From an uncultured Planctomycetia bacterium (GTDB taxonomy: Bacteria; Omnitrophota; Gorgyraeia; Tantalellales; Tantalellaceae), in the NCBI GenBank assembly GCA_964565425.1, contig CAZMEZ010000004.1, positions 24,907 through 88,906 on the forward strand: DNA of 64,000 nt, written 5' to 3'. How positions within the stretch are numbered: position 1 is the stretch's first letter; each line of letters opens with the position of its first letter. Below, one piece after another: positions 3,150-23,273 of this stretch. Both the position numbers and the translations under genes were made by a program. A model generated the notes under the pieces. That model searched no databases. It was not told the origin of the DNA and saw only the letters and a list, made by a program, of their open reading frames with translations.

Positions 3150-3176
3150 AAAAACAGATATGAAAGGAAGGGGAAA

Positions 3177-3449
3177 ATGATAAAGAAGATAGCGAAAAGA
3201 CTTGCGAACAGGTCTTCCGCCGGTTCCAGCAAGGGCACCTGCAAGAAAGCCGCCACGAGCATGACAAAATCTTCCTCCAAGGCCAAGAAATCGACCTCGA
3301 GGAGAAAGAAGGTCAGCTGGGAGGAGTGGAACACCCTGATAGCCCAGAAGGCTTACGAGATATTCGAAAAAAGGGGCTATTCTCACGGTAACGATCAGAC
3401 GGACTGGTACGAAGCCGAAAAGATGGTCAGCAAGACCTACAAAGTCTGA
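3177..3449 (+). CDS. DUF2934-like small protein with Lys/Ser-rich basic N-terminal tail
   Basis: 90 aa. The C-terminal segment HGNDQTDWYEAEKMV matches the conserved D-W-x-EAE core of DUF2934. The N-terminus is K/S/R-rich and histone-tail-like. GGAAGGGG ribosome-binding site upstream. Confidence 0.5.
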   Translation: MIKKIAKRLANRSSAGSSKGTCKKAATSMTKSSSKAKKSTSRRKKVSWEEWNTLIAQKAYEIFEKRGYSHGNDQTDWYEAEKMVSKTYKV

Positions 3450-3483
3450 CAAGATCCCGTAAAGTAGCTGTTTGAAGAGACTC

Positions 3484-3522
3484 GGGCAGAGGCCCCGCGG
3501 GCTTCTGCCCTGTCTGTTTTTT
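3484..3522 (+). terminator. Rho-independent terminator after the DUF2934 gene
   Basis: GC-rich hairpin gggcagaggcc..ggcttctgccc followed by tgtctgtttttt. Confidence 0.6.
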
Positions 3523-3542
3523 AACCGGAAAGGACGCATGTT

Positions 3543-4808
3543 ATGGCAATGCCGTCCAAAGAAGTGTTGTGCGTTATCCTCGGGGGAGGAAGAGGCTCCA
3601 GACTCTACCCCCTGACGAAGGAGAGATGCAAGCCCGCGGCGCCTCTCTTCGGGAAATACCGCCTTATAGACATACCCGTAAGTAATTGCCTTAATTCCGG
3701 GTTCAACCGGATATATATTCTCACCCAATTTCTGTCTGAATCCCTGAACAAGCATGTGAACAGGACCTACAAGATGGATCCCTTTTCGAGGGGGTTCATC
3801 GAAATAATCGCCGCAGAACAGTCGATGGAGGACACGGAATGGTTCCAGGGGACCGCCGACGCCGTGAGAAGGTGTCTTAAACACTTCAACGATCCGGCCA
3901 TAAAATACATCCTGGTTCTCTCGGGGGACCAGTTGTACAAAATGGACCTGAGGGAGATGTTCTATTATCATATTCAGAAAGAAGCCGAGGTCACGGTGGC
4001 CTGCAATCCCGTTTCAGCCGATGATGTCTCCCACTTCGGGATAATGGGGATAGGAGAGAACAATCGTATAAACAGGTTCATGGAAAAGCCCAAAGATCTG
4101 GAGCCCATAAAGGACCTGGAGATCAGAAAGGACGGAAAAAACTATTATCTCGGTTCCATGGGCATATATCTTTTCAACAAGACCACGCTTGTGGAGCTTC
4201 TCGAGAAAGACAAGAAGGTCGATTTCGGAAAAGAGATAATCCCGGAAGCGATAAAGACCAAATCGACGTCCGCGTTCCTTTTTGAGGGATACTGGCGCGA
4301 CATAGGCACGATCAAGTCTTTCTACGAAGAGAACCTCTCGCTCACGAAGGCCATACCCCCGCTCGACATGTTCGACGAGAGGTGGCTTATATTCACCAGG
4401 CCGAGATACCTTTGTCCCGCGAAATTCGAGGATAGCTGCATAGAGAGGAGTATAGTGGCGGAGGGCGCCATTATACTTTCAGCGAAGATATTACATTCCA
4501 TAATAGGCTTGAGGTTCCGAGTGAACAGCAGTTCCACCATAGAGGATACCATAGCGATGGGATCTGATTATTACGAGACGGTAGAGGAGATAGACGAAAG
4601 GGCGTCCAAAGGATTGCCCCCGCTCGGAGCGGGGAAAGACTGCCTCATAAGAAAGGCCATACTGGACAAGAACGTCAGGATAGGCGATAACGTCAGGATA
4701 ATAAACACCGAGAACAGGGAAAACTACGACGGACCGAACTATTTCATAAGGGATGGTATCGTAATAATCCCCAAGGGAGAGGTTATCCCTTCGGGGACGG
4801 TGATATAG
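3543..4808 (+). CDS. glgC: Glucose-1-phosphate adenylyltransferase
   Basis: 421 aa. Has the N-terminal LGGGRGSRLYPLT nucleotidyltransferase motif and a C-terminal left-handed beta-helix region. Sits in glycogen context with GH57. Confidence 0.85.
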   Translation: MAMPSKEVLCVILGGGRGSRLYPLTKERCKPAAPLFGKYRLIDIPVSNCLNSGFNRIYILTQFLSESLNKHVNRTYKMDPFSRGFIEIIAAEQSMEDTEWFQGTADAVRRCLKHFNDPAIKYILVLSGDQLYKMDLREMFYYHIQKEAEVTVACNPVSADDVSHFGIMGIGENNRINRFMEKPKDLEPIKDLEIRKDGKNYYLGSMGIYLFNKTTLVELLEKDKKVDFGKEIIPEAIKTKSTSAFLFEGYWRDIGTIKSFYEENLSLTKAIPPLDMFDERWLIFTRPRYLCPAKFEDSCIERSIVAEGAIILSAKILHSIIGLRFRVNSSSTIEDTIAMGSDYYETVEEIDERASKGLPPLGAGKDCLIRKAILDKNVRIGDNVRIINTENRENYDGPNYFIRDGIVIIPKGEVIPSGTVI

Positions 4809-7272: not shown

Positions 7273-8334
7273 ATGACAAAATGGCAATACGGGAAGAGAC
7301 TGAAGCCCTCGGTCTTTGATATACCCGTCAGGAAGATAAAGAGCGGGTGGTACAGCGACAAATATTTCGTCCGGACAAAAAAGATACTGGAAAAGGATAA
7401 TAATCACGCCCGGGCACTCATGCAGGTTTTCTGCAGGAAGGATGCCGTGGTATGCGGCCTTGACGAGGCCATAGCCGTACTTAAGCTTTGCGCCGGCAGG
7501 CCGAAAGAGCTCGTCATAAAGGCGCTGTACGACGGCGACAAGGTAAAGGCCGGCGATACGGTCATGACGATAGAGGGCGACTACGGCACTTTCGCGCATC
7601 TCGAAACGGTTTACCTGGGAGTAATAGCCAGACCGACCGCGGTCGCGACCGCTGTCAGAAAAGTGGTTAAGGCGGCAAAAGGGAAAAAAGTCCTGTTCTT
7701 CCCCGCCAGGTTCGATCACTACAGGGTGCAGACGACTGACGGGTATGCCGCTTTCATATCGGGCGCCCTGGGGGTGTCCACGGACGCGCAGGGCCTCTGG
7801 TGGGGGGAAAAGGGGCTGGGGACCGTGCCTCACGGGCTCATCGCGGCTTACGGCGGCGACACGGTAAAGGCCGCGGTCGCTTTCGACAAGTATATGCCGA
7901 AGGACATACAGAGGATAGTGCTCGTGGATTTCGAGAACGATTGCGTGGGGACATCGCTGGAGGTCGCCGAAGCTCTCGGCGACAGGTTGTGGGCGGTCCG
8001 GTTCGACACGGCCGAAGACGTCCGGGACGTGTCGGTCAAAGGCAAAGGAAAAGATTCGTACGGCGTGTGTCCCGAACTGGTTTTCCGGGCCAGAAAGGCC
8101 CTTGATGAACACGGTTATAAGAAAGTGAAGATAATAATCTCCAGCGGTTTTAACGAAGAAAAGATAAAAAGGTTCATAAGACTCAAGGTTCCCTTTGACG
8201 CGGTGGGCGTGGGGTCGGCCCTCATGCGCGAAAAGATAGATTTCACCGCCGACGTGGTCAAGGTCCACGGGAAGCCGCTCGCGAAGATAGGGAGGAAGTA
8301 TAATCCGAATCCGAGATTGAAGGTAGTGAGGTGA
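7273..8334 (+). CDS. Nicotinate phosphoribosyltransferase family protein (short, archaeal-type)
   Basis: 353 aa. N-terminal YSDKYF plus the NAPRTase-family barrel. The antisense ORF 7000-8268 is a shadow. Confidence 0.7.
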   Translation: MTKWQYGKRLKPSVFDIPVRKIKSGWYSDKYFVRTKKILEKDNNHARALMQVFCRKDAVVCGLDEAIAVLKLCAGRPKELVIKALYDGDKVKAGDTVMTIEGDYGTFAHLETVYLGVIARPTAVATAVRKVVKAAKGKKVLFFPARFDHYRVQTTDGYAAFISGALGVSTDAQGLWWGEKGLGTVPHGLIAAYGGDTVKAAVAFDKYMPKDIQRIVLVDFENDCVGTSLEVAEALGDRLWAVRFDTAEDVRDVSVKGKGKDSYGVCPELVFRARKALDEHGYKKVKIIISSGFNEEKIKRFIRLKVPFDAVGVGSALMREKIDFTADVVKVHGKPLAKIGRKYNPNPRLKVVR

Positions 8335-8433: not shown

Positions 8434-9807
8434 GTGAACGAAAAAAACACGGAGCGCAACATGGAAAAAGAAAAAATAGTGCTACTGGTCGACGATGACG
8501 AGACGGTTTGCGGTCTTCTCGAGAAGATCGTGTCCCCGATGGTCGAAGAGAAGGTGGTCTGCGCTTTCACCGGCGCGGAAGCGAATAATATCATAAAGAA
8601 GAAGGAGCTCGCCCTCGCTATACTCGATTATAAGCTGCCCGATACGGACGGCATAGAACTGATGAAGAAGATAAAAGCCGTCGATAACGAAGTTCCCGTC
8701 GTAATAGTGACGGGCTTCGGCTCCATAGAGACGGGCGTCGAGGCGATCAAGCACGGCGCGTACGACTATCTTTTAAAACCTTTCCAGCCCGAGAAGATAC
8801 ACGCCCTTGTCAGGGGGCTCGTAAATTACAAGAAGCTCCGGGAGGAGAACCTTGCGCTCAGGGAAGAGCTTGGTTTGAGATACAGCATGGGGCGCCTGAT
8901 AGGTAAAAGCGAGAAGATACGCAAGATCTACGACCAGATCCCGAACCTCGTGAATACCGATTCGACGGTCCTCATACAGGGAGAAAGCGGAACGGGAAAA
9001 GAACTGCTCGCGAGGGCCATTCACTCTAATTCGCCGCGCAAGGACAAGCCTTTTGTCGTAGCCGACTGCACGGCGCTTGCCGAGAGTCTGCTGGAAAGCG
9101 AGCTCTTCGGGCACGAGAAAGGGTCGTTCACGGGGGCCATACGCCAGAAGATCGGGAGGTTCGAACAGGCGGATGGCGGGACGATATTCCTGGACGAGAT
9201 AGGCGATATCTCCGCGGCGGCGCAACTTAAGCTGCTCAGGGTACTCCAGGAGATGACCTTTGAAAGGGTCGGGGGCGAAGAGACCATAAAGGTCGACGTA
9301 CGCGTAATAGCCGCGACGAACAAAGACCTGGACAGGCTCATGCAGGAAGGCAAGTTCCGGGAAGACCTGTTCTACCGTCTCAGCGTTATACCCGTATACA
9401 TGCCGCCGCTTCGTGAACGAAAGGTGGATATACCGTCGCTTGCCAGGTGTTTCGTTGACCAGTTCGCGGTAAAGAACGCGAAAAAGATAGAGAACATTTC
9501 CGACGACGCGTTCAGGCTGCTTATGGATCATGACTGGCCGGGCAACATACGCGAGCTCGAGAACGCCATGGAGAGGGCGGTTGTCGTAGCCCGTGGGAAC
9601 ATTATCCAGGAAGAGGACCTTCCGCCGAAAATATACAAGCAGCCGACAGGTGCCCCGGCGAGCAGTAATTCCCTTAAGGAGAACGAGAAATTCCTGATAA
9701 GCAGGGTGCTTGCTGAATGCGGTAACAACATGCTCAAGGCCGCCAAAGAACTCGGCATTTCCCGATCCACGCTTTACGGTAAGATGAAGAAGCTGGGGAT
9801 AAGATAG
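8434..9807 (+). CDS. Sigma-54-dependent two-component response regulator (NtrC/Fis family)
   Basis: Receiver domain (LLVDDDE..D), AAA+ sigma-54 activator domain (GESGTGKE, GAFTGA) and a C-terminal Fis-type helix-turn-helix. Confidence 0.85.
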   Translation: MNEKNTERNMEKEKIVLLVDDDETVCGLLEKIVSPMVEEKVVCAFTGAEANNIIKKKELALAILDYKLPDTDGIELMKKIKAVDNEVPVVIVTGFGSIETGVEAIKHGAYDYLLKPFQPEKIHALVRGLVNYKKLREENLALREELGLRYSMGRLIGKSEKIRKIYDQIPNLVNTDSTVLIQGESGTGKELLARAIHSNSPRKDKPFVVADCTALAESLLESELFGHEKGSFTGAIRQKIGRFEQADGGTIFLDEIGDISAAAQLKLLRVLQEMTFERVGGEETIKVDVRVIAATNKDLDRLMQEGKFREDLFYRLSVIPVYMPPLRERKVDIPSLARCFVDQFAVKNAKKIENISDDAFRLLMDHDWPGNIRELENAMERAVVVARGNIIQEEDLPPKIYKQPTGAPASSNSLKENEKFLISRVLAECGNNMLKAAKELGISRSTLYGKMKKLGIR

Positions 9808-10971: not shown

Positions 10972-12336
10972 ATGCCGGCGGATTACGGTATGGAAAGAAG
11001 CATGAGGCAGGTCCAGTATCTGTCCCAGCAGGCCCGGATAACGGTGCATATACTTCAGCTGCCCCTTCTTGAGCTGAGAGAGTACCTCGCGCGGGAACTG
11101 ACGGAAAATCCCATGCTCGAAGGAGACGAAGGGGAGCGGGACAGGGAGAACGTGGAGGATATCGAAAGCGCCAAAGAATACGACTTCATAACGAGAAGGT
11201 CGGGTGTTTACGACGAAGAAAGAGAAGAGAAGCGCAGGTACAGGGAAGCGCAGATAACCAAAGAAGAGACCCTCGAAGATCACCTCTTGTGGCAGCTGGA
11301 CATGTCCACCGAAGAAATAGATCACGGGATAGGGGAAGAGATTATAGGGGATCTTGACCGTAACGGATATCTCAGGTCCGATACCCGACGGATCGCCGAG
11401 AAGTTCTATGTTCCGCTCGAAAAGGTGGAGGAAATTTTGTTCCTGATCCAGGGGCTCCACCCGGCAGGGGTAGGGGCCAGGGACCTTAGGGAATGCCTTC
11501 TCGCGCAGCTGAGATCACAGGGCAAGGAAGATACCCTCGGTTACCGGATAGTGGAAACATGCCTTAAGGACCTTGAAAAAGGGGACGATGCGAGTCTCGC
11601 AAAAAAGCTTCGCGTAAAACAGGAAGATGTCGTGAAGGCCAGACAACTGATAAATTCGCTGGAACCCAAACCGGGAAGGATGTTCGCGCCCGGAGAAAGC
11701 GTTTGGGCCGTTCCGGATATAATTATCGAAAGGAAAGACGACAGGTTCAGCGTCAGCCTGAACGAACGGTTCCTGCCGAAACTGCGCCTGAGCTCTTATT
11801 ACTTAAAACTTCTGAAGGGCAAGAACGCGGATGATGATGTAAAGGGTTTTCTGGAAGAGAGGAAGACCAGGGCCCAGTGGGTGATAGAGGCGATCCTGCA
11901 AAGACGGGATACGATAAAGAAGGTCGCGGAATACATAGTGAATGTGCAGAAGGATTTTCTTGATGATCCGTGGGGCAGCGTCAAACCGCTTAAAATGGAA
12001 GAGATCGCCGAGGACCTGGGTGTAAGCAAATCGACAGTGAGCAGGGCGGTCGCGAAAAAATATGTCCAAACGGAATACGGGCTCCTGCCGCTCAAGCGTT
12101 TTTTCAGCACGGCATTGGCCGGGGAGAAGGGAGAAGATCTTTCGGCCGATCTTGTGAAGAAGAAGATCGGCGAAATGATCGCCGATGAAGACAAGCGAAC
12201 GCCGTTAAGCGATGCGGATATAGCCGGGCGGTTGGAAAAGGACGGGATAAACATAGCCCGCAGGACCGTGGCTAAATACCGCGAAGGATTGGGGATAGCC
12301 GCTCGTGGCCGAAGACGGAAAAAGCGGAAGGGCTGA
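10972..12336 (+). CDS. rpoN: RNA polymerase sigma-54 factor
   Basis: N-terminal Q/L-rich region I (LSQQARITVHILQLPLLEL). C-terminal RpoN box ARRTVAKYRE and a helix-turn-helix. The true start may be a downstream Met (MERSMRQ). Confidence 0.85.
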   Translation: MPADYGMERSMRQVQYLSQQARITVHILQLPLLELREYLARELTENPMLEGDEGERDRENVEDIESAKEYDFITRRSGVYDEEREEKRRYREAQITKEETLEDHLLWQLDMSTEEIDHGIGEEIIGDLDRNGYLRSDTRRIAEKFYVPLEKVEEILFLIQGLHPAGVGARDLRECLLAQLRSQGKEDTLGYRIVETCLKDLEKGDDASLAKKLRVKQEDVVKARQLINSLEPKPGRMFAPGESVWAVPDIIIERKDDRFSVSLNERFLPKLRLSSYYLKLLKGKNADDDVKGFLEERKTRAQWVIEAILQRRDTIKKVAEYIVNVQKDFLDDPWGSVKPLKMEEIAEDLGVSKSTVSRAVAKKYVQTEYGLLPLKRFFSTALAGEKGEDLSADLVKKKIGEMIADEDKRTPLSDADIAGRLEKDGINIARRTVAKYREGLGIAARGRRRKKRKG

Positions 12337-12423
12337 TACGGCCGTTGTATCTCTTTCGCTCTTGTGTTAAAATAATCACCTGCCATTCGGCCATTTCACG
12401 AAGAACATACACGGAGGCATAAT

Positions 12424-13926
12424 ATGAGCGGTATTTTCGGCGTCGTTTCCAGGGGTGATTGTTCCGAAGCTCTTCTCTACGGGACGGACTACCATTCGCA
12501 TCTGGGGACCGAGTACGGCGGCATCGCCGTGCTTGGCGATGGTTTCCAGAGACAGATACACAATATAAACAACAGCCAGTTCAAATCCAAGTTTTATGAA
12601 GACTCAAAGCGCATGAAAGGCAACAAGGGCATAGGCGTCATCAGCGACAGCAATGAACAGCCGATGTACCTTAGTTCGAAGTTCGGGCCGTTCTGCATAG
12701 TAACGAGCGGTCTCATAGAGAATTCCGAAGAGCTCATGCGGAACCTCCTCAAAAAAGGCCTTTCCTTCAGCGAGATAGCCGGCGGCAGGGTGAACGTGAC
12801 GGAGCTCATAGCCAAACTTATCAGCCAGGGTGACGACCTGATAGACGGGATAGAAAGGATGTTCGATTGTATAGACGGGTCCTGTTCGCTTCTTATCCTT
12901 AACGAGGACGGGGTATATGCCGTGAGGGACCGGTGGGGCTATACCCCGCTTATTATCGGCAGGCGCGATGACGCGTGCCCTGTTAGAGGCGATGGATCTG
13001 GCGGGGATAGCGCCTCTAACTGGGCGTGGGCCGTTACATCCGAAACCAGCGCTTTTCCCAATAACCGTTTTGAGGCCGTCAAGGAACTGGAGCCCGGGGA
13101 AATAGCCCTTTTGCGCGAAAAAGGGATCGAGACCCTGAGGCCCGGGAACGGGAAAAAGCAGATATGCACTTTCCTGTGGATATACACGGGTTTCCCGGCG
13201 TCGAGCTATGAAGGCATCAATACCGAGACCGTGAGGGAAAGATGCGGCAGAGCGTTGGCCCGCAAAGATAAGGATATCGAAGTGGACCTTGTTTCCGGGA
13301 TACCGGATTCGGGTGTCGCGCACGCGCTGGGATACTCCATGGAGTCCGGCAAACCCCTCCGCCGGCCGCTCGTGAAGTACACTCCGGGATACGGCCGCAG
13401 CTATACACCGCCTTCCCAGGAGACCAGGGACCTTATCGCGACAATGAAGCTCATACCGATAAAGGATATCATCGAAGGGAACAGGATAGTCGTATGCGAA
13501 GACTCGATCGTCAGGGGCACCCAGCTCAAGAACTATACGGTGAAAAAACTCTGGGACTGCGGCGCTAAAGAGGTGCACGCAAGACCGGCATGCCCGCCTT
13601 TGATGTACCCCTGCAAGTTCTGCCTTTCCACCCGCAGCATCCACGAGCTTGCCGCGCGCAAGGCGATAAAGAGCATCGAAGGCCATGATGTCGACGATGT
13701 CCCGGAATATATCGACCATACCACGGATAAGTACCGGGAAATGGTCGAATGGATAAGGAAGGACCTTGATGTTACGACCCTGAGGTACCAGACCCTGGAC
13801 GACATGATCGACGCGGTCGGCCTGCCGAGGGAGAAGCTGTGCACCTATTGCTGGACGGGGGAATGTCCTTTGACGAAAACGCCGGAAGAGCCGCAGAAAA
13901 GACATACGGCCAAAGCCGTCGGCTAA
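12424..13926 (+). CDS. Amidophosphoribosyltransferase (PurF)-like protein with Ser in place of the N-terminal nucleophile Cys
   Basis: Begins MSGIFGV, where PurF has MCGIVG. Has the class-II glutamine-amidotransferase fold and a C-terminal PRTase motif VVCEDSIVRGTQ. The C-terminal CxxC cluster resembles the PurF Fe-S ligands. GGAGG ribosome-binding site. Confidence 0.65.
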   Translation: MSGIFGVVSRGDCSEALLYGTDYHSHLGTEYGGIAVLGDGFQRQIHNINNSQFKSKFYEDSKRMKGNKGIGVISDSNEQPMYLSSKFGPFCIVTSGLIENSEELMRNLLKKGLSFSEIAGGRVNVTELIAKLISQGDDLIDGIERMFDCIDGSCSLLILNEDGVYAVRDRWGYTPLIIGRRDDACPVRGDGSGGDSASNWAWAVTSETSAFPNNRFEAVKELEPGEIALLREKGIETLRPGNGKKQICTFLWIYTGFPASSYEGINTETVRERCGRALARKDKDIEVDLVSGIPDSGVAHALGYSMESGKPLRRPLVKYTPGYGRSYTPPSQETRDLIATMKLIPIKDIIEGNRIVVCEDSIVRGTQLKNYTVKKLWDCGAKEVHARPACPPLMYPCKFCLSTRSIHELAARKAIKSIEGHDVDDVPEYIDHTTDKYREMVEWIRKDLDVTTLRYQTLDDMIDAVGLPREKLCTYCWTGECPLTKTPEEPQKRHTAKAVG

Positions 13927-14032: not shown

Positions 14033-14956
14033 ATGGCGAGAAAGAAGCTTTTATCGGGCATTGTCCTCACGGCGTGCATTCTGGGTTTGATCCTTATGAA
14101 TGAGGCGTTCACCATGTCATCCCGCGCGAAATTCATCAATAGTGATTCCCTGATAAAGAGCAGGGACAACTCCGTTTACGACATCGATATCGGCCCCGAT
14201 GGCAGGATATACGTGCCTGATTTCCGTAACGATAATGTGCTGGTCCTTGACAGGAACCTCAACGAGATCAGGCGCATAAAGGTCCCGACGCCGCATGCTC
14301 TGGCGGTGGCGGCGGACGGGTCCCTTTACGTGGCGACGTATAAGAGCGGAAGGGTCCACAAATTCGACCCGTCGCTTAAGGAACTCAAGGGCTGGGACAG
14401 GTCGCTGGTAAGAGGTAAAAAGATAGGGCTGCCTCTTGGGGTCGATACTGATAAGGAAGGGAACCTGCTGATAGCCGATTACGCGCTGAAAACCATTATA
14501 AAAGCCGACGGCGAAGGCCGGTATATCGGGGAATTCGATACCGGGAAAATGGCCGGAGGATCGGATTTTCTGCCCCATTCCGTAATGACGGACGGGGAGA
14601 AGTTCGTTTACGCGGCGGACAGGGGAAAACAAAAGGATATTCGGGTATTCAGGATCGATGGAGGGTATGTAGGGGCATGGGGTTGCCCCGCGGTAAAATT
14701 CGACCCCCTTACCGTGCGTTTTTTGGACCATGGACTCTTATTGGTCCCGAACTACAAAGACAGCAAGTTACACCTTTTTGACCTTTCCGGAAAGTGGCTT
14801 ACCGATATCGGTTCATACGGCGATAAGCCGGGTGAATTCCTGCGTGTTACTAATCTTGTTTCCGATGGGAACGGGCATATTTACGTGGTCGAAGAGGGTG
14901 GGAACCGTATCCAGGAGATAGACATGAGCGGGCTTATCGAAACCTACCGGGATTAA
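14033..14956 (+). CDS. NHL-repeat (six-bladed beta-propeller) protein, exported or membrane-anchored
   Basis: N-terminal hydrophobic anchor. Repeated motifs of the form PxGvavDxdGniYVaD, characteristic of NHL repeats. Confidence 0.6.
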   Translation: MARKKLLSGIVLTACILGLILMNEAFTMSSRAKFINSDSLIKSRDNSVYDIDIGPDGRIYVPDFRNDNVLVLDRNLNEIRRIKVPTPHALAVAADGSLYVATYKSGRVHKFDPSLKELKGWDRSLVRGKKIGLPLGVDTDKEGNLLIADYALKTIIKADGEGRYIGEFDTGKMAGGSDFLPHSVMTDGEKFVYAADRGKQKDIRVFRIDGGYVGAWGCPAVKFDPLTVRFLDHGLLLVPNYKDSKLHLFDLSGKWLTDIGSYGDKPGEFLRVTNLVSDGNGHIYVVEEGGNRIQEIDMSGLIETYRD

Positions 14957-15112: not shown

Positions 15113-15478
15113 ATGAATGAACACCCCTTAAAAGAGGATATATTTAAGATCCTTCGCCTGTTATCCAACCAGGAGGACATGTCCCAGCGGGACCTGTCCG
15201 GTCATCTCGACATGTCACTGGGCAAGACCAATTATCTTTTGAAATCGATGGTCCAGCGCGGTCTCATAATGGTGAAGAACTTCACTGTCAGGGACCAGAA
15301 GATGAAAAAGGTCAAATACATACTGACTACGAACGGCCTGGACGAGAAGGTCCGGTTGGCATATTACTATCTCAAAAAGAAGGAAGCGGAGTATCTGGAG
15401 CTCAAGAACGAGCTGGAGAACGGTTCGGCGGCCGTAGAGGCGGACGTGAAGCCTTTGCCCGAAAAATCAGAGGTATGA
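15113..15478 (+). CDS. EPS-associated MarR-family winged-helix transcriptional regulator
   Basis: 121 aa. LSNQEDMSQRDLSGHLDMSLGKTNYLLKSMVQRGLI matches the short MarR subfamily found beside exopolysaccharide loci. Confidence 0.6.
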   Translation: MNEHPLKEDIFKILRLLSNQEDMSQRDLSGHLDMSLGKTNYLLKSMVQRGLIMVKNFTVRDQKMKKVKYILTTNGLDEKVRLAYYYLKKKEAEYLELKNELENGSAAVEADVKPLPEKSEV

Positions 15479-17742: not shown

Positions 17743-18723
17743 ATGCTAAACGGCAGCACAGTACTTGTCACGGGAGGAACGGGTTCTTTCGGCAGGAAAT
17801 TCACGGAGATGGTCTTCGAAAGATACAAGCCGAAAAAACTCATCATATTCAGCAGGGACGAGTTCAAGCAGCACGAGATGTCCAAGACGTTCCCTCCCCA
17901 CGAATACCCCGTACGGTATTTTCTGGGGGATATCCGCGATAAGACCAGGCTTTACAGGGCTTTCGAAGGGGTAGATTACGTAATTCACGCCGCGGCGCTG
18001 AAACAGGTGCCGGCGCTCGAATATAACCCTATCGAAGCGGTAAGGACGAACGTCGCCGGCGCGGACAATATAGTGGACGCGGCCATCGATGTCGGCGTCA
18101 AAAAGGTCGTGGCGCTTTCCACCGATAAGGCCGTGAGCCCCATAAACCTGTACGGGGCGACAAAGCTCGTGGCGGAGAAGATATTCGTCGCGGCCAACGC
18201 TTACGGAGGGGAAAAAACCAAGTTTTCCGTAGTCAGGTACGGGAACGTGGTAGGTTCAAGAGGAAGCGTGATACCTTTTTATCTCGATCTCAAAAAGAAA
18301 GGCATAAATGAATTTCCGGTCACCGATAAAAAGATGACCCGTTTCTGGATAACGCTGGAGGAAGGCGTCGATCTGGTGCTAAAGGCGCTTGAAGAATCCG
18401 TCGGGGGCGAGGTCTTTATCCCGAAGATACCTTCGATGAAGATCGTTGACCTCGCCAGGGCGATAGACCCGGAGTGCGGGATAAAGGTAATAGGCATAAG
18501 ACCCGGGGAAAAGATGCACGAAACGCTTGTATCCGAGGACGAAGCCAGGAACGTCAGGGTATTCGACGGGTTATACGTAATGCTCCCGCAGTTCTTCGAA
18601 AAGGCGGAAGCCCATGAAAAGTACGATTCTTGTCCGCTGGTGCCGGAAGGATTTGTTTACAGGAGCGATAAGAACGACCGGTGGCTTCACGTGGACCAGC
18701 TCCATGAAATGATAAGGATGTGA
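17743..18723 (+). CDS. pseB: UDP-N-acetylglucosamine 4,6-dehydratase (inverting), PseB/CapD-type
   Basis: VLVTGGTGSFG Rossmann motif. The YGATK active site is typical of PseB/FlaA1. Heads a Pse-type operon. Confidence 0.8.
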   Translation: MLNGSTVLVTGGTGSFGRKFTEMVFERYKPKKLIIFSRDEFKQHEMSKTFPPHEYPVRYFLGDIRDKTRLYRAFEGVDYVIHAAALKQVPALEYNPIEAVRTNVAGADNIVDAAIDVGVKKVVALSTDKAVSPINLYGATKLVAEKIFVAANAYGGEKTKFSVVRYGNVVGSRGSVIPFYLDLKKKGINEFPVTDKKMTRFWITLEEGVDLVLKALEESVGGEVFIPKIPSMKIVDLARAIDPECGIKVIGIRPGEKMHETLVSEDEARNVRVFDGLYVMLPQFFEKAEAHEKYDSCPLVPEGFVYRSDKNDRWLHVDQLHEMIRM

Positions 18724-18727
18724 CGTT

Positions 18728-19873
18728 ATGAGGCTTATACCGTACGGCCGGCAGCATATCGACGCGAGCGACATAAAAGAAGTGGCAAGCGCGCTCGGAT
18801 CGGACTGGATAACCCAGGGACCGAGGATAAAAGAGTTCGAGGACGCGCTTTGCGGGTATACCGGGGCCCTGTACGCGGTAGCGGTATCCAACGGGACCGC
18901 GGCGCTGCATATAGCGTGCCTTGCTGCGGGCATAACAAAGGACGACGAGGCAATAACCTCTCCCATGACCTTTGTCGCTTCGGCGAACTGCGTTCTTTAT
19001 TGCGGAGGAAAACCGGTATTTGCCGACGTAAAGGAAAACACGGCGAATATCGATCCGGACCAGATAAAGAAAAAGATCACCGGTAGAACAAAAGCGATCA
19101 TACCGGTGCATTTTGCCGGACATCCCTGTGACATTGAGGAGATAAAAGGGATCGCCGACAAGCACGGTCTCATGATAATAGAGGACGCGGCGCACGCGTT
19201 AGGCGCGGAATACGGTGGCGGCAAAGTGGGATCATGCGAGCATTCCGACATGGCGATATTCAGTTTCCATCCGGTTAAGTCGATAACCACGGGCGAAGGA
19301 GGGGCGGTCCTTACCAACCGGAAGGACCTTTATGAAAAGCTTTTGATGCTGAGAGCCCACGGGATAACAAAGGATAACGGGCGGATGTCCTCCGGCGAGG
19401 GGGCCTGGTATTACGAGCAGCAGCAGCTGGGGTTCAACTACCGTATAACGGATTTCCAGTGCGTGCTCGGCCTGAACCAGCTTAAGAAACTCGAAGAGTT
19501 CGTATCCCGCAGAAGGGAGATAGCCGGCATCTATGCCCGCGGGCTGTCACGGGAAAGCGCTCTCATGCTGCCCGGCGAGGAAGGGCCCGTAAGATCGGCG
19601 TGGCATATTTACTGCGTACGCGTTAAGGACGCCGCAAAAAGAAAGCCCTTGTTCGATCATTTGAGGAAAGCGGGCATAATTCCCCAGGTCCATTATATCC
19701 CGGTGTATTTTCATCCATATTACAAAGGGCTCGGTTACGAAAAAGGCATCTGTCCTAGGGCCGAGGATTTTTACGCGCGGGAAATAAGCATACCCCTTTA
19801 CCCGGCGATGACGGATGAAGACGCGGCATATGTAATAAAGATGATCTCCAAATTCTGCGGGGAGGGAAGATGA
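18728..19873 (+). CDS. pseC: UDP-4-amino-4,6-dideoxy-N-acetyl-beta-L-altrosamine transaminase (DegT family)
   Basis: N-terminal IPYGRQHIDASDI is typical of PseC. Has a PLP lysine region (SFHPVKSITTGEGG). Confidence 0.8.
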   Translation: MRLIPYGRQHIDASDIKEVASALGSDWITQGPRIKEFEDALCGYTGALYAVAVSNGTAALHIACLAAGITKDDEAITSPMTFVASANCVLYCGGKPVFADVKENTANIDPDQIKKKITGRTKAIIPVHFAGHPCDIEEIKGIADKHGLMIIEDAAHALGAEYGGGKVGSCEHSDMAIFSFHPVKSITTGEGGAVLTNRKDLYEKLLMLRAHGITKDNGRMSSGEGAWYYEQQQLGFNYRITDFQCVLGLNQLKKLEEFVSRRREIAGIYARGLSRESALMLPGEEGPVRSAWHIYCVRVKDAAKRKPLFDHLRKAGIIPQVHYIPVYFHPYYKGLGYEKGICPRAEDFYAREISIPLYPAMTDEDAAYVIKMISKFCGEGR

Positions 19874-20613
19874 AGGTCGGGGCGATAATACAGGCGAGAA
19901 CGACTTCGACCAGGCTTCCTCGAAAGGTGCTGAAGGAGTTGCCGCGCGGCAGCGGTATCACGGTCCTGGAACAGGTGATAAGAAGGCTAAAGAGGGCAAA
20001 GAAGCTGGATGCGATAGTAGTCGCCACCACTACGGACCGGGAAGACGACCCCATCGTCGCGATCGCGGAAAAAGAAAAAGTGGACGTTTTCCGCGGCAGC
20101 AGGGACGACGTCCTGTCCCGGTATTATCTGGCGGCGAAGGAGAACGGCCTGGACGCGGTGGTGAGAGTGACGAGCGATTGTCCGTGCATCGATCCGGCCG
20201 TATTGGATATCGTGACCGAAGCGCACGTCAGGCACGGGGTGGATTACACCTCGAACACCTTGACGAGGACATATCCGCGCGGTCTTGACGTGGAAGCGAT
20301 AAGTTTCAGCGCTCTTGAGACGGCGCACGAGAAGGCGGAGCTGAAATCGGACAGGGAACACGTTACCTCTTACATATACAGGACGCGTCCGGATTTTTTC
20401 AGCAAGAGACAGATAACGGCGCCGGAAGGGGATGACGCCTCCGCTATCAGGGCGACTTTGGACACGGAGGAAGATTACGGGCTCCTCTCCGCCGTGTTCG
20501 ATCACCTGTATCCCGAAAATGAATTTTTCGGAGTCAATGAGCTCGTGCGCTTTTTCGATAACAATCCGTGGGCAAAAAAGATAAACGAAAAAATAAACCA
20601 AAAGAAGATATGA
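19870..20613 (+). CDS. CTP_transf_3-family cytidylyltransferase (SpsF/PseF-like)
   Basis: AIIQARTTSTRLPRKVL motif of the acylneuraminate-cytidylyltransferase / SpsF family. A second member of this family is at 28814. Confidence 0.65.
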   Translation: MKVGAIIQARTTSTRLPRKVLKELPRGSGITVLEQVIRRLKRAKKLDAIVVATTTDREDDPIVAIAEKEKVDVFRGSRDDVLSRYYLAAKENGLDAVVRVTSDCPCIDPAVLDIVTEAHVRHGVDYTSNTLTRTYPRGLDVEAISFSALETAHEKAELKSDREHVTSYIYRTRPDFFSKRQITAPEGDDASAIRATLDTEEDYGLLSAVFDHLYPENEFFGVNELVRFFDNNPWAKKINEKINQKKI

Positions 20614-20629
20614 CGGGCAAGGGCGTATC

Positions 20630-21253
20630 GTGAATAAGAGGGTCTCTATAATAGATTACGGGATGGGAAACCTGAAGTCCATAGCGAACGCGCTTACCGC
20701 CGTCGGGGCGGACGTAAAGGTGGCGGTATCCCCGAATGATCTTGGAGCGGCAGCCCGCATCGTGCTTCCGGGAGTTGGGGCTTTCGGCGACGGGATGAGC
20801 AGCCTTAAAGAACGCGGTTGGATGGAGGCACTGAACGAAGAGGTCATGATAAAGAAAAAAACTTTTCTCGGCGTTTGTCTCGGGATGCAGCTCCTGGCGT
20901 CGGCAAGTACGGAGCACGGGGAGCATGAAGGATTCGGGTGGATATCCGGCAGGGTGGACAAGATAAGTTCGGCCGGCGTACGAGTTCCCCATATAGGGTG
21001 GAATGACGTCAGGCTGGTCAAGAGAGAAGGGCTTTACTCGGGGATAGACGATCCACAGGCATTCTATTTCGTTCATAGTTATGTGTTCCGTCCGGATGAT
21101 CCCTCCGTTGTCAGCGGGGTATGTTCCTACGGAACGGATTTTGCGGCCAGCATAGAAAAAGAGAACATATATGCCACGCAGTTTCACCCGGAAAAAAGCC
21201 ATAAGAAGGGGCTGGCGGTATTGAAGAACTTCCTGGAGGCGCGGGGATGCTGA
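20630..21253 (+). CDS. Imidazole glycerol phosphate synthase HisH-like glutamine amidotransferase (polysaccharide-type, WbuY-like)
   Basis: Class-I glutamine-amidotransferase triad (GVCLGMQ ... H/E). Paired with a HisF-like gene inside a sugar locus. Confidence 0.8.
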   Translation: MNKRVSIIDYGMGNLKSIANALTAVGADVKVAVSPNDLGAAARIVLPGVGAFGDGMSSLKERGWMEALNEEVMIKKKTFLGVCLGMQLLASASTEHGEHEGFGWISGRVDKISSAGVRVPHIGWNDVRLVKREGLYSGIDDPQAFYFVHSYVFRPDDPSVVSGVCSYGTDFAASIEKENIYATQFHPEKSHKKGLAVLKNFLEARGC

Positions 21254-22035
21254 AGAAAAGACTTATACCGGTATTGCTCCTGCAGAACGGCCTGTTGGTA
21301 AGGAGCGAGCTTTTCAAGATACACCAGATAATCGGGAACCCGATACACGAGGTGCAGAGGTTCAACGAATGGAACGTGGATGAACTGGTATATCTGGATA
21401 TCACTAAAGACGACAACTATGATCTAAGGAGAAGCGACGGCAAGGTGAAAGGCCTGGGCGACCCTTTAAGCATTCTCGACGCGGTGAGCGATACCTGTTT
21501 TATGCCGCTCACGTGGGGAGGGCGCATCCGCAGGGTCGAGGACATGAGAACGTTCATCAGCCACGGCGCGGATAAAGTGACGATCAATACGGCGGCCGTG
21601 AAGACCCCCGGTCTTATCACGCGGGGAGCCAGGACTTTCGGCAGCCAGGCGATAGTCGTCAGTATAGATGTCCTGCGTCATGCTGGCGGCAAAACGGAGG
21701 TATTCATAGAAGGCGGACGGACTCCAACGGGCAAGAGACCCGAGGGATGGGCCAAGGAAGCGGAAGACCGTGGCGCGGGAGAGATACTCCTGCAGTCGAT
21801 CGACCGTGACGGCACGGGAGAAGGTTATGATCTCGAGCTTATCGAGGCGGTATCTTCGGCCGTTACCATACCCGTGATCGCGTGTAGCGGGGTCGGGGTT
21901 TACGAACATTACCCGCAGGCCGTCAAGGCGGGAGCGTCAGCCGTAGCGGCCGCGAACATATGGCATTTTAAGGAATTGTCCGATAAGGGGGGCAAACGCG
22001 CCCTGGCGCGCGCCCAGGTCGAAATACGCACTTAA
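21247..22035 (+). CDS. HisF-like cyclase subunit (WbuZ-like)
   Basis: TIM-barrel HisA/HisF family. Has the LIPVLLLQNG N-terminus typical of polysaccharide-type HisF paralogues. Confidence 0.8.
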   Translation: MLKKRLIPVLLLQNGLLVRSELFKIHQIIGNPIHEVQRFNEWNVDELVYLDITKDDNYDLRRSDGKVKGLGDPLSILDAVSDTCFMPLTWGGRIRRVEDMRTFISHGADKVTINTAAVKTPGLITRGARTFGSQAIVVSIDVLRHAGGKTEVFIEGGRTPTGKRPEGWAKEAEDRGAGEILLQSIDRDGTGEGYDLELIEAVSSAVTIPVIACSGVGVYEHYPQAVKAGASAVAAANIWHFKELSDKGGKRALARAQVEIRT

Positions 22036-22049
22036 CATAGGAGAAGTAT

Positions 22050-23249
22050 ATGTCGGTCCGGTATTGCAGCAAATGTGTCTATCCGGCTATAGCGGCTACG
22101 CCGCTCACTTTCGACGACGACGGCGTGTGTTCCGGATGCCGGGTTTCCGGTCAAAAGGACACCATCGACTGGGAAAAAAGAGGCAGGATGCTGAAGGATC
22201 TGGCGGACGGGTACAAGACGGGAAGTAACTATGATATCGTCATACCCGTCAGCGGCGGCAAGGACAGTTATTTCCAGGCCCATTATGCGGTGAAAGAACT
22301 GGGCCTTAAACCTCTTCTCGTGACCTATCACGGGAACAATTATCTCCCGGAAGGAGAGTACAACCTTTTCAGGATGAGGGAGGTCTTTGACTGTGACCAC
22401 ATAATTGTGAGGCCGAGTGTTGAAACGCTGGTCAAGATGAACCGCATAGGGTTCAAGCTCCAGGGCGACATGAACTGGCACGCGCATTGTGGCATATTCA
22501 CCGTGCCTATACAGATCGCCGTTAGATACAAAGTGCCGCTGATGATGTGGGGGGAGCACGGGTTCATGGACCTGGGGGGGATGTATTCGCACAATGATTT
22601 CGTGGAGTTCACGGCGAAATTCCGGCTTGAACACGCGCTGAGAGGATACGACTGGTACGATTTTACGGACGAAGGCCTTGAAAAACTGGGCAGGCCCGAG
22701 ATCAAGGAGGGGCTGACCGCGCGGGACCTTTTGTGGGCGCGGTACCCGGGCGACGACGAGATAGACGAGGTAGGGGTGCGCGGTATATACCTCGGTAACT
22801 ACGCGCATTGGGACGCGAACCGCCATTCCCGCATGGTAATGGAAAAATACGGTTGGAAACCGGCACAGAGAGAGTTCGAACGCACCTACAGGAAGATATC
22901 CAACCTTGACGACATGCACGAGAACGGTATCCACGATTATCTCAAATTCGTGAAATTCGGGTATGGCCGGGGCACCGACCATTCGTGCAAGGATATCCGC
23001 GCGGGCATAATGACGCGCGGGCAGGCCGTAGAAATGGTCAGGAAATACGATCACGTCAAGCCCAGGTTCGATCTGGACAGGTGGCTGAAATATGTGGACA
23101 TGACCGAAGAGGAATTCGACCATATCTGCGACACTTTCAGGGACGGACGTGTGTGGCGACAGGAAAAGGGACAATGGGTAAAAGATAACGTCTGGGGGGA
23201 ACCGTCCGCGTACGGACCGGTACACGCGACGGGTTCTTTGGTGAAATGA
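22050..23249 (+). CDS. N-acetyl sugar amidotransferase (WbpG/PseA-like PP-loop ATPase)
   Basis: N-terminal zinc ribbon CSKC..CSGC and PP-loop SGGKDS. This family converts N-acetyl groups to acetamidino groups together with the HisH/HisF paralogues. The antisense ORF 22032-23225 is a shadow. Confidence 0.75.
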   Translation: MSVRYCSKCVYPAIAATPLTFDDDGVCSGCRVSGQKDTIDWEKRGRMLKDLADGYKTGSNYDIVIPVSGGKDSYFQAHYAVKELGLKPLLVTYHGNNYLPEGEYNLFRMREVFDCDHIIVRPSVETLVKMNRIGFKLQGDMNWHAHCGIFTVPIQIAVRYKVPLMMWGEHGFMDLGGMYSHNDFVEFTAKFRLEHALRGYDWYDFTDEGLEKLGRPEIKEGLTARDLLWARYPGDDEIDEVGVRGIYLGNYAHWDANRHSRMVMEKYGWKPAQREFERTYRKISNLDDMHENGIHDYLKFVKFGYGRGTDHSCKDIRAGIMTRGQAVEMVRKYDHVKPRFDLDRWLKYVDMTEEEFDHICDTFRDGRVWRQEKGQWVKDNVWGEPSAYGPVHATGSLVK

Positions 23250-23273
23250 CCATATTAATAAAGGCCGAAAAGT

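What the first reader, a model, noticed from the sequence alone, without database searches (positions are those of the whole stretch)
12424..13926. PurF-like amidophosphoribosyltransferase whose N-terminal nucleophile Cys is Ser
The protein begins MSGIFGV, where canonical PurF has MCGI. In the N-terminal-nucleophile glutamine amidotransferases the Cys after Met is the catalytic residue. The PRTase P-loop (VVCEDSIVRGTQ) and a C-terminal Cys cluster are intact. The gene sits with rpoN, an NHL propeller protein and an EPS regulator, not with purine genes. Either a single-base error changed TGC to AGC, or this is a paralogue that uses Ser as nucleophile, or one that has lost glutamine hydrolysis and uses free ammonia or a different substrate.
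Basis: seen in the sequence. Interest (0 to 1): 0.5.

Follow-up and report, generated by a model that had tools for sequence, protein, structure and literature searches.

The report
Cysteine-less PurF paralogue, probably ammonia-dependent
The gene belongs to a very large, uncharacterised family of PurF-like enzymes that have lost the whole glutamine-splitting site but keep the sugar-phosphate site, and that sit beside or in place of normal purF in purine operons, so it most likely makes the first purine intermediate directly from free ammonia.

Summary
ORF 12424-13926 (+) encodes a 500-aa two-domain PurF-like protein that starts MSGIFGV, and no upstream start could supply a Cys.

It is not a sequencing error: 119 of the 120 closest homologues start MSG. 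It is also not a Ser-nucleophile enzyme. In the wider family this position is Ser or Gly (rarely Thr, Ala or Val) and never Cys. The other glutamine-site residues of PurF (Arg26, Arg73, Tyr74, Thr76, Asn101, Asp127) are replaced or deleted.

The PRPP loop, the flexible loop and the four Fe-S cysteines are retained. The protein scores 188 bits on TIGR01134 (cut-off 350).

The family occurs in at least 600 species of Bacteria and Archaea. In relatives it lies next to canonical purF. In Omnitrophota and Lawsonibacter operons it fills the slot before purM that canonical purF fills in related pur operons. Elsewhere it lies with carB, glnA and gdh.

Best reading: an ammonia-dependent PRPP aminotransferase. 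Brown et al. (2011) proposed this for the Cys-less crenarchaeal PurF', and it has never been tested. In this window the gene stands alone after rpoN.

Moderately interesting: a new variant of a known kind.

The parts
12424..13926 (+). Complete ORF (500 aa) of the Cys-less PurF-like protein: an Ntn-amidotransferase-like N domain plus a type I PRTase domain.
   Evidence: AF2 model pLDDT 81.6. Foldseek top hits are PurF structures 1ao0, 1gph, 6lbp and 1ecb, E 4e-35 to 1e-30, TM 0.74-0.83.
12413..12417 (+). GGAGG ribosome-binding site, 6 nt upstream of the ATG.
   Evidence: Read directly from the sequence.
12427..12429 (+). Codon 2, AGC = Ser, at the position of the catalytic Cys1 of PurF.
   Evidence: The family has S, G, T, A or V here and never C.
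12487..12501 (+). Family signature D22-Y23-H24-S25-H26 (followed by L-G-T), replacing the canonical L-Q-H-R26-G motif.
   Evidence: D22, Y23 and H26 are invariant and H24 nearly invariant in A2. Comparison with canonical PurF.
12634..12663 (+). G71-x-I-S74-D ... Q79-P80: the shortened 'glutamine loop'. The canonical R73-Y74-x-T76 segment is deleted (8 residues missing).
12979..13020 (+). Lineage-specific Gly/Ser/Asp-rich insertion (about residues 186-199) in a variable surface loop.
   Evidence: Absent from the other family members. Shared with P0001. P0044 has a different insertion at the same site. pLDDT < 50.
13165..13167 (+). Cys248, equivalent to B. subtilis PurF Fe-S ligand Cys236.
   Evidence: Invariant in A1 and A2.
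13375..13449 (+). PRTase flexible loop (K318 ... R325-S326 ... Q332 ... R335 ... K342), equivalent to E. coli PurF 326-350.
   Evidence: K318, R325, Q332, R335 and K342 are invariant. They align with E. coli K326, R332 and Q339.
13489..13524 (+). PRPP-binding loop VVCEDSIVRGTQ. The family-specific Gln367 replaces the second Thr of canonical DDSIVRGTT.
13612..13614 (+). Cys397, equivalent to B. subtilis Fe-S ligand Cys382.
13840..13851 (+). C473-T-Y-C476, equivalent to the C-terminal CxxC Fe-S ligands of B. subtilis-type PurF.
   Evidence: (domain 2 alignment).

Best explanation
The gene encodes a member of a large, ancient, monophyletic family of PurF paralogues. I call the family X here; its signature is M-[S/G]-G-[IFL]-F-G ... 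Y-G-T-D-Y-H-S-H-L-G-T.

The glutaminase active site of the N-terminal domain has been dismantled. The phosphoribosyltransferase half (PRPP loop, catalytic flexible loop) and the [4Fe-4S] site are under strict conservation.

The most likely function is the PurF reaction without glutamine: PRPP + NH3 -> 5-phosphoribosylamine + PPi. That would make it an ammonia-dependent isozyme of amidophosphoribosyltransferase. It would work alongside the glutamine-dependent PurF or, in some lineages, replace it.

Shown: loss of the glutamine site, retention of the PRTase and Fe-S sites, the PurF fold, family-wide absence of Cys, and genomic linkage to purine and ammonia-assimilation genes in relatives.

Inferred: the actual reaction. 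Also inferred: that deleting the 'glutamine loop' opens the former channel entrance to solvent ammonia, and that the conserved small N-terminal residue (the free amine left after Met removal) and the D-Y-H-S-H pocket help bind or deprotonate NH4+.

In this window the gene stands alone, 87 bp downstream of rpoN, and nothing in the window itself indicates its pathway.
For: (a) Not an error, and clade-wide. 119/120 nearest homologues start MSG. Among representatives of 50%-identity clusters that carry the DY..H motif, position 2 is G (37), S (22), T (4), A (1), never C. Canonical PurFs have Cys in 116 of the 116 that could be classified.

(b) The glutamine site is gone. E. coli-numbered Cys1, Arg26, Arg73, Tyr74, Thr76, Asn101 and Asp127 are invariant in 6 canonical sequences and replaced or deleted in all 12 family members aligned.

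(c) The PRTase machinery is kept. Tyr258, Ser304, Lys326, Arg332, Gln339, Asp367, Ser368, Arg371, Gly372 and Thr373 are conserved, as are the Fe-S ligands. The fold is PurF.

(d) Same operon slot. The Omnitrophota operon purB-purL-LOG-purQ-[slot]-purM-purD-purE holds canonical PurF in L091 and L092, canonical PurF plus X in tandem in L018, and only X in L023 and L025.

(e) Gut Oscillospiraceae. Lawsonibacter has purE-purC-purC-X-purM-purN-purO-purH-purD. Dysosmobacter has purE-X-purC-purF-purM-....

(f) Planctomycetota relatives 71-73% identical to the window protein lie in purF-purM-X (L010, L012, L013).

(g) Other ammonia-using enzymes are neighbours. carB without carA is adjacent in 8 distinct loci from 3 phyla. 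L080 has gdh-x-X-carB-glnA followed by a sigma54 activator.

(h) Precedent. The C1S/C1A E. coli enzyme keeps NH3-dependent activity, and Brown et al. proposed exactly this role for the Cys-less crenarchaeal PurF' (PMC3261824).
Against: There is no biochemical or genetic test of any family member in the literature I could search.

X and canonical purF are sometimes co-transcribed in tandem (L018, L087). That is not what one expects of differentially regulated isozymes, and it would also fit a hetero-oligomer.

The N domain is not decaying. It carries a new, nearly invariant motif (D22 Y23 H24 H26 S74 N124 E127), which suggests a function beyond being a scaffold and possibly a different ligand or nitrogen donor.

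'Only X in the slot' means no canonical purF within +/-10 kb, not none in the genome. I could not inspect whole genomes.

About 55 of 75 loci, this window included, show no nucleotide-related neighbours.
Confidence: 0.55

Rival explanations
1. X is a non-catalytic or regulatory partner (pseudo-amidotransferase) that forms hetero-oligomers with canonical PurF and modulates it, for example in feedback or nitrogen sensing.
For: It co-occurs with canonical purF and is directly adjacent to it in five phyla (L010, L012, L013, L018, L061, L038, L064, L087). Canonical PurF is common in Omnitrophota. The glutaminase site is dead. The N domain carries a new conserved pocket that could bind an effector.
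Against: The PRPP loop and flexible-loop residues are invariant across a family with only 40-50% overall identity, which is the pattern of a working PRTase. X alone occupies the purF slot in L023, L025 and L089. Most X genes are far from purF.
Confidence: 0.15
2. X catalyses a different PRPP-dependent reaction or uses a different nitrogen donor. Examples: nitrogen delivered from a partner such as CarB or carbamate, or another amide handled by the remodelled D-Y-H-S-H pocket.
For: The family-specific invariant residues lie where glutamine used to bind. There are family-specific changes in the PRTase domain: RGTQ instead of RGTT, FLWIYTGFP instead of FEYIYFARP, and a roughly 25-aa insertion after the second Fe-S Cys. 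X forms tight operons with carB lacking carA (gaps of 4-45 bp) and recurs next to DUF1846.
Against: Occupying the exact purF slot in otherwise complete pur operons argues for the PurF product. No nucleophile is available for amide hydrolysis.
Confidence: 0.17
3. Ser2 (Ser1 after Met removal) is a true N-terminal nucleophile, so the enzyme is still a glutamine (or other amide) amidotransferase.
For: Ser and Thr serve as N-terminal nucleophiles in other Ntn hydrolases (general knowledge). Ser is conserved in 119/120 close homologues.
Against: Gly replaces Ser in a nested Syntrophus clade and throughout the sister subfamily, and Ser reappears sporadically there. AGY<->GGY are single transitions. 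Arg26, Arg73, Asn101 (oxyanion hole) and Asp127 are all lost. E. coli C1S is glutamine-inactive.
Confidence: 0.04
4. Sequencing or assembly error (TGC read as AGC), or a mis-called start, in an ordinary purF.
For: AGC and TGC differ by one base.
Against: Hundreds of independent assemblies give the same N-terminus. There is an upstream in-frame stop and no Cys. The protein fails the purF equivalog cut-off (188 vs 350 bits), while neighbouring canonical PurFs score 493-522.
Confidence: 0.01

Closest known systems
Glutamine PRPP amidotransferase PurF, B. subtilis type with [4Fe-4S] cluster (PDB 1ao0/1gph; TIGR01134; EC 2.4.2.14)
   Same: Same two-domain fold (Foldseek E 4e-35, TM 0.74-0.80) and about 27% identity over the full length. 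The PRPP loop, the flexible-loop Lys/Arg/Gln and the four Fe-S cysteines are conserved. Relatives occupy the purF position of pur operons.
   Different: No Cys1. Arg26, Arg73, Tyr74, Thr76, Asn101 and Asp127 are lost and the 'glutamine loop' is shortened by 8 residues. There is a new D-Y-H-S-H motif, RGTQ instead of RGTT, and a roughly 25-aa insertion before the C-terminal helix. It scores far below the equivalog cut-off (188 vs 350).
PurF' of Crenarchaeota (Brown et al. 2011, Biol Direct 6:63, PMC3261824)
   Same: A PurF paralogue lacking the N-terminal Cys. It co-occurs with a genuine purF and clusters with purine genes. It carries the same untested hypothesis of ammonia-dependent PRA synthesis.
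   Different: PurF' was described only in Crenarchaeota, with Ala or Val at the nucleophile position. The present family has Ser or Gly and spans many bacterial phyla plus Asgard, Altiarchaeota, Thermoplasmatota and Methanobacteriota MAGs. I could not test whether the two are the same clade because I had no PurF' sequence.
E. coli PurF Cys1Ser / Cys1Ala mutants (Mei & Zalkin 1989, as cited in PMC3261824)
   Same: Engineered loss of the nucleophile abolishes glutamine use but leaves NH3-dependent PRA synthesis. This is the biochemical precedent for what X is proposed to do naturally.
   Different: The mutants keep the rest of the glutamine site. X has rebuilt it and is a naturally selected, widespread protein.
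Ammonia- versus glutamine-dependent enzyme pairs (AsnA/AsnB; NH3- vs Gln-dependent NAD synthetase)
   Same: One reaction served by two enzymes that differ in nitrogen donor. This is an analogy for X plus PurF in one genome (general knowledge).
   Different: Those pairs are either unrelated folds or differ by the presence or absence of a glutaminase domain. X retains a full-length but remodelled glutaminase-like domain.

Membership tests
Canonical PurF (TIGR01134 equivalog, glutamine-dependent EC 2.4.2.14) | N-terminal nucleophile Cys (Cys1 after Met or propeptide removal) | tested here: not met
   Ser at codon 2, with no upstream Cys. The family never has Cys.
Canonical PurF (TIGR01134 equivalog, glutamine-dependent EC 2.4.2.14) | Glutamine-site residues Arg26, Arg73, Tyr74, Thr76, Asn101/Gly102 and Asp127 (E. 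coli numbering; roles recalled from Kim et al. 1996) | tested here: not met
   Only Gly27 and Gly102 remain; all the others are replaced or deleted.
Canonical PurF (TIGR01134 equivalog, glutamine-dependent EC 2.4.2.14) | Score at or above the curated HMM cut-off | tested here: not met
   188.4 bits vs cut-off 350. Other family members score 172-212. Adjacent canonical PurFs score 493-522.
Canonical PurF (TIGR01134 equivalog, glutamine-dependent EC 2.4.2.14) | Type I PRTase PRPP loop and PurF flexible loop | tested here: met
   EDSIVRGTQ, K318, R325, Q332, R335 and K342 are invariant.
Canonical PurF (TIGR01134 equivalog, glutamine-dependent EC 2.4.2.14) | Two-domain Ntn + PRTase fold | tested here: met
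   AF2 pTM 0.76. Foldseek top 17 hits are all PurF structures.
Canonical PurF (TIGR01134 equivalog, glutamine-dependent EC 2.4.2.14) | [4Fe-4S] ligands of the B. subtilis subclass | tested here: met
   C248, C397, C473 and C476 align with Cys236, Cys382 and the CxxC.
Canonical PurF (TIGR01134 equivalog, glutamine-dependent EC 2.4.2.14) | Catalyses PRPP + glutamine -> PRA | not testable with these tools
   Needs an enzyme assay.
Cys-less PurF paralogues (PurF' sensu Brown et al. 2011) | PurF homologue lacking the N-terminal Cys | tested here: met
Cys-less PurF paralogues (PurF' sensu Brown et al. 2011) | Co-occurs with a genuine purF and clusters with purine genes | tested here: inconclusive
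   Met for relatives (L010, L012, L013, L018, L023, L025, L061, L087, L089). Not met in this window, which has no pur genes in 64 kb. The rest of this genome was not available.
Cys-less PurF paralogues (PurF' sensu Brown et al. 2011) | Same phylogenetic clade as the crenarchaeal PurF' | not tested
   No crenarchaeal PurF' sequence was at hand. Other Cys-less groups found here are from Patescibacteria.
Cys-less PurF paralogues (PurF' sensu Brown et al. 2011) | Ammonia-dependent PRA synthesis | not testable with these tools
   A hypothesis both in the paper and here.
Ser/Thr-type Ntn hydrolases | Invariant N-terminal nucleophile with oxyanion hole | tested here: not met
   S/G/T/A/V interchange. 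The Asn101 equivalent is variable.

The most novel reading that the evidence does not exclude
The remodelled N domain is not a relic but a new active or sensor site (D22-Y23-H24-S25-H26, S74, N124, E127 and the free N-terminal amine). It would capture a nitrogen source other than glutamine, for example NH4+ at low concentration, or nitrogen handed over from CarB, carbamate or another partner. It would feed this through the old ammonia channel into PRPP. That would define a new class of 'glutaminase-free channelled aminotransferase', or even a new first step of purine synthesis in anaerobes, including abundant gut Oscillospiraceae.
Probability: 0.15. Interest if true: 0.8.

Novelty: new variant of a known kind. 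Interest (0 to 1): 0.55.

Why it matters
PurF is the committed, textbook glutamine-dependent step of purine synthesis and a drug target. A family found in at least 600 species (Omnitrophota, Planctomycetota, Desulfobacterota, gut Oscillospiraceae and Bacteroidales, Asgard archaea) is annotated simply as 'amidophosphoribosyltransferase', yet it cannot hydrolyse glutamine.

If it makes phosphoribosylamine from ammonia, many anaerobes have a cheaper entry into purine synthesis, one that does not spend the glutamine made at ATP cost by glutamine synthetase. Metabolic reconstructions that treat every such gene as glutamine-dependent PurF would then be wrong in their nitrogen and energy bookkeeping.

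It would also settle the PurF' hypothesis, open since 2011, with an easily testable bacterial protein.

Tried and rejected
- **Upstream start or propeptide supplying a Cys:** none.
- **Riboswitch or other RNA element upstream of the gene:** none at E <= 1. In seven Firmicutes/Bacteroidales loci the only relevant elements were a ZTP riboswitch inside the L089 pur operon and a TPP riboswitch 5.6 kb away in L085. The latter controls a transporter operon and is separated from X by an opposite-strand gene.
- **Promoter and terminator scan of the rpoN-X gap:** nothing above shuffle expectation. I saw no sigma54 -24/-12 element on reading the 87-bp spacer.
- **Conserved synteny around the closest homologues (L001-L009):** none.
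- **Genome-level co-occurrence of X with canonical purF:** I could not inspect whole genomes. Comparing the lengths of the longest contigs carrying X with those carrying canonical PurF gave no shared contig.
- **Literature search for a characterised Cys-less bacterial PurF:** only the untested PurF' proposal. The thiC-purF operon of Clostridium ragsdalei (PMC6505512) was a lead, but I could not check whether that purF is Cys-less.
- **DUF1846/UPF0371 neighbour:** the literature gives only a hemin-binding report for a pneumococcal homologue, so no clear link.
- **Structure model:** coordinates are not exposed, so I could not test whether the conserved N-domain residues line a pocket or channel.
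Full report
**1. The observation**

The ORF at 12424-13926 on the + strand is real. It is 500 aa long and begins ATG AGC GGT ATT TTC GGC GTC (MSGIFGV). A GGAGG ribosome-binding site lies 6 nt upstream.

Reading the frame backwards gives '*SPAIRPFHEEHTRRHN' before the Met. No longer N-terminus or B. subtilis-like propeptide could therefore expose a Cys.

Pfam recognises only the class-II glutamine amidotransferase domain (GATase_7). The NCBIfam purF equivalog TIGR01134 matches end to end but scores 188 bits against a cut-off of 350. The nearest solved structures are B. subtilis PurF 1ao0/1gph (E 3e-45), followed by the other PurFs.

An AlphaFold2 model built on 47 homologues has mean pLDDT 81.6 and pTM 0.76. 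Its 17 best Foldseek matches in the PDB are all PurF structures, with TM 0.72-0.83. This is a genuine two-domain PurF homologue.

- rpoN at 10972-12336, preceded by an NtrC-type sigma54 activator at 8434-9807;
- an NHL-repeat protein at 14033-14956;
- a MarR-type HTH protein at 15113-15478.

No other pur gene or PurF homologue exists in the 64 kb.

**2. Not an error, and not only Cys-to-Ser**

A search of 5.8 billion proteins returned thousands of homologues. The best 120 are 70-94% identical, come mostly from Omnitrophota with some Planctomycetota, and 119 of them begin MSG[IVLM][FC]G.

I aligned the protein with E. coli and B. subtilis PurF and with four canonical PurFs from the same phyla.
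- **Glutamine site.** Every residue I recall as forming it (Cys1, Arg26, Arg73, Tyr74, Thr76, Asn101, Asp127; E. coli numbering) is invariant in the canonical sequences. Every one is replaced or deleted in all twelve family members compared. The 'glutamine loop' is eight residues shorter.
- **PRTase half.** It is intact: Tyr258, Ser304, Lys326, Arg332, Gln339, Asp367, Ser368, Arg371, Gly372 and Thr373.
- **Fe-S site.** Cys248, 397, 473 and 476 match the positions I recall as the four [4Fe-4S] ligands of B. subtilis PurF (Cys236, Cys382 and the C-terminal CxxC).

**3. The family**

An exhaustive HMMER scan of 1.84 billion cluster representatives found 725 clusters at E < 1e-30.

The closest roughly 100 all share an N-terminus M-[S/G/T/A]-G-x-F-G and the motif Y-G-T-D-Y-H-S-H-L-G-T in place of the canonical L-Q-H-R-G-Q-E. 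Sequences with x-C-G ... LQHRGQ appear only at about 35% identity.

Counts for position 2:

| Set | Residue at position 2 |
|---|---|
| DY..H-motif representatives | G 37, S 22, T 4, A 1 (plus two single M/F matches, probably regex artefacts), C 0 |
| Homologues of a canonical Omnitrophota PurF (classifiable) | Cys in 116 of 116 |

A neighbour-joining tree (distance-based only) makes the family monophyletic against canonical PurF and splits it into two subfamilies.
- One subfamily is mostly Ser and contains the window protein, with a Gly-type Syntrophus clade nested inside it.
- The other is mostly Gly, with scattered Ser, Ala and Val.

The Ser codons are AGC/AGT in 35 of 36 loci and the Gly codons are GGN, so Ser and Gly interchange by single transitions. 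The side chain at this position is therefore not catalytically required. Only its small size is conserved, which by general knowledge would permit removal of the initiator Met.

The taxa include Omnitrophota, Planctomycetota, Elusimicrobiota, Desulfobacterota, Clostridia, Spirochaetes, Acidobacteriota, Gemmatimonadota, Verrucomicrobiota, Lentisphaerae (including the cultured Oligosphaera ethanolica and Victivallis vadensis) and Bacteroidales. MAGs of Altiarchaeota, Thermoplasmatota, Methanobacteriota and Asgard archaea also carry it.

A Gly-type cluster with 3295 member sequences comes from gut Oscillospiraceae (Dysosmobacter, Lawsonibacter).

All family members tested fail the purF equivalog cut-off (172-212 bits). 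The canonical PurFs encoded next to them score 493-522 bits.

**4. Genomic context in relatives**

I called ORFs in 86 loci and clustered them by BLAST. Most loci, like this window and its closest relatives, show nothing informative. The recurrent neighbours are striking.

*Canonical purF within a few genes, in five phyla:*
- purF-purM-X in three Planctomycetota (L010, L012, L013). Their X proteins are 71-73% identical to the window protein, as close as its Omnitrophota homologues.
- purL-purQ-purF-X-purM in an Omnitrophota MAG (L018).
- purE-purF-X in an Anaerolineae MAG (L061).
- Convergent X/purF pairs in two Asgard MAGs (L038, L064).
- purE-X-purC-purF-purM-purN-purO-purH-purD-purL in Dysosmobacter.

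*The same operon slot:*
- Omnitrophota have a conserved operon purB-(purC)-purL-LOG-purQ-[slot]-purM-purD-purE-tsaC-rpiB-glyA.
- The slot holds canonical PurF in L091 and L092.
- It holds both genes in L018.
- It holds only X in L023 and L025. The flanking genes there were confirmed as purB, purL, purQ, purM, purD and purE above their NCBIfam cut-offs.
- Lawsonibacter has purE-purC-purC-X-purM-purN-purO-purH-purD, with no canonical purF in the operon.

This pattern (one, both, the other) is what in-situ displacement by a functional equivalent looks like.

*Ammonia-using enzymes as neighbours:*
- carB is adjacent, without carA, in eight distinct loci from Omnitrophota, Desulfobacterota and Lentisphaerae, with gaps of 4-45 bp.
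- One Desulfobacteraceae locus reads glutamate dehydrogenase - x - X - carB - glnA - sigma54 activator.

*Canonical PurF in the phylum:* it is itself common in Omnitrophota. The 120 best hits to the L018 enzyme are at least 61% identical, and all named ones but one (a Woesearchaeota MAG) come from that phylum. X is therefore usually an additional gene rather than the only PurF.

**5. Mechanism**

*Shown:*
- the protein cannot use the Ntn glutaminase mechanism;
- it keeps every element needed to bind PRPP and close the PurF flexible loop;
- the family is genomically tied to de novo purine synthesis at the PurF step and to ammonia assimilation.

*Inferred:* it catalyses PRPP + NH3 -> phosphoribosylamine + PPi. 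E. coli PurF performs this reaction with ammonia even when Cys1 is changed to Ser or Ala (Mei & Zalkin 1989, cited in PMC3261824).

I further suggest, without a test, three things:
- deleting the glutamine loop opens the head of the former ammonia channel to solvent;
- the retained N-terminal amine and the new D-Y-H-S-H/Ser74/Asn124/Glu127 cluster bind or deprotonate NH4+;
- carrying both enzymes lets energy-limited anaerobes skip the ATP-costly glutamine route when ammonium is plentiful. The analogy is AsnA/AsnB and the NH3- versus glutamine-dependent NAD synthetases.

I give this reading 0.55.

*Rivals:*

| Reading | Confidence | Main point for | Main point against |
|---|---|---|---|
| Regulatory or hetero-oligomeric partner of PurF | 0.15 | Tandem co-transcription with purF | Strict conservation of the PRTase site; X alone in the slot |
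| Different nitrogen donor or different PRPP reaction | 0.17 | New conserved N-domain motif; carB and DUF1846 neighbours | Occupancy of the purF slot |
| True Ser nucleophile | 0.04 | Ser conserved among close homologues | Ser/Gly interchange; glutamine site lost |
| Sequencing error | 0.01 | One-base difference | Hundreds of independent assemblies agree |

**6. Comparison with what is known**

The protein works like, and folds like, B. subtilis-type PurF. It is not a member of the glutamine-dependent PurF equivalog, because three defining features were tested and failed: the nucleophile, the glutamine-site residues and the HMM cut-off.

The closest published concept is PurF' of Crenarchaeota (Brown et al. 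2011). PurF' is a Cys-less paralogue (Ala/Val) that clusters with purF and purine genes and was proposed, without a test, to be an ammonia-dependent PRPP aminotransferase.

I found no later experimental work and no description of the Ser/Gly 'DYHSH' family in Bacteria. I could not test whether it is the same clade as PurF'. Other Cys-less PurF-like groups seen here come from Patescibacteria.

**7. Verdict**

The sequencing-error and Ser-nucleophile options are rejected.

The gene is an ordinary member of a very large family that is annotated by automatic pipelines as plain 'amidophosphoribosyltransferase'. That family is uncharacterised and mechanistically distinct from textbook PurF, so I rate it a new variant of a known kind, with moderate interest (0.55).

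*Caveats:*
- ORF calls and neighbour families in the loci are my own, apart from those checked with NCBIfam/Pfam or supplied with the contigs.
- 'No canonical purF' always means within +/-10 kb.
- The tree is distance-based.
- Nothing in the window itself links the gene to purines. The adjacency to rpoN and an NtrC-type activator fits nitrogen control but may be coincidental.

Noticed in passing
window 12979-13020 (residues ~186-199 of the ORF): A 17-residue Gly/Ser/Asp-rich insertion (DACPVRGDGSGGDSASNW) that the other aligned family members lack. It is shared with the 94%-identical P0001. P0044 has a different insertion at the same loop. The model confidence there is below 50.
   Followed up: partly
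L023:9203-9940, L025:4734-5426, L091:8571-9227: Omnitrophota pur operons carry a conserved LOG / TIGR00730 (Lysine_decarbox, nucleotide 5'-monophosphate nucleosidase-like) gene between purL and purQ. Its role in a de novo purine operon is unexplained.
   Followed up: partly
L004/L009, L043, L047, L048, L067, L075, L076, L080: carB (full-length CPSase large subunit) lies directly next to the Cys-less PurF-like gene, with no carA nearby. In L043 and L080 a glutamine synthetase follows, and L080 also has a glutamate dehydrogenase and a GAF-sigma54 activator. This looks like an ammonia-assimilation gene cluster.
   Followed up: partly
L004:6456-7979, L007:9625-11169, L011:11630-13231(-), L086:7347-8543(-): DUF1846/UPF0371 proteins recur beside the PurF-like gene in Omnitrophota, Pirellulales and Lentisphaerae. 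The only literature on the family is a hemin-binding report in S. pneumoniae.
   Followed up: partly
proteins P0202, P0218, P0236, P0238, P0241, P0260, P0264: Further, more distant Cys-less PurF-like groups (N-termini MAGL.GLS, motif FYQQHLGEE). At least some come from Patescibacteria. Loss of the nucleophile seems to have happened more than once in the PurF superfamily.
   Followed up: partly
window 17743-28077: Nonulosonic-acid (pseudaminic/legionaminic-type) biosynthesis genes: PseB-like dehydratase, DegT aminotransferase, cytidylyltransferase, HisF-like cyclase, GNAT and NeuB synthase.
   Followed up: partly
window 31961-45000: A PEP mutase fused to a nucleotidyltransferase domain (37943-39649), flanked by three B12-binding radical SAM proteins (31961-33394, 39663-41213, 43510-45000) and an ABC exporter. 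This suggests a methylated phosphonate decoration of a glycan.
   Followed up: no
window 7273-8334: A 353-aa protein that matches only the N-terminal domain of quinolinate phosphoribosyltransferase (another PRPP enzyme family). The C-terminal catalytic domain was not detected by Pfam.
   Followed up: no
window 20-4808: Glycogen metabolism genes upstream: amylase/glucanotransferase C-terminal fragment, DUF4912, GH57 branching enzyme and glgC.
   Followed up: no
L089:8498-9957 and 13177-13256: The Lawsonibacter pur operon has two tandem purC copies and a ZMP/ZTP riboswitch inside the operon, just before the IMP cyclohydrolase gene.
   Followed up: no
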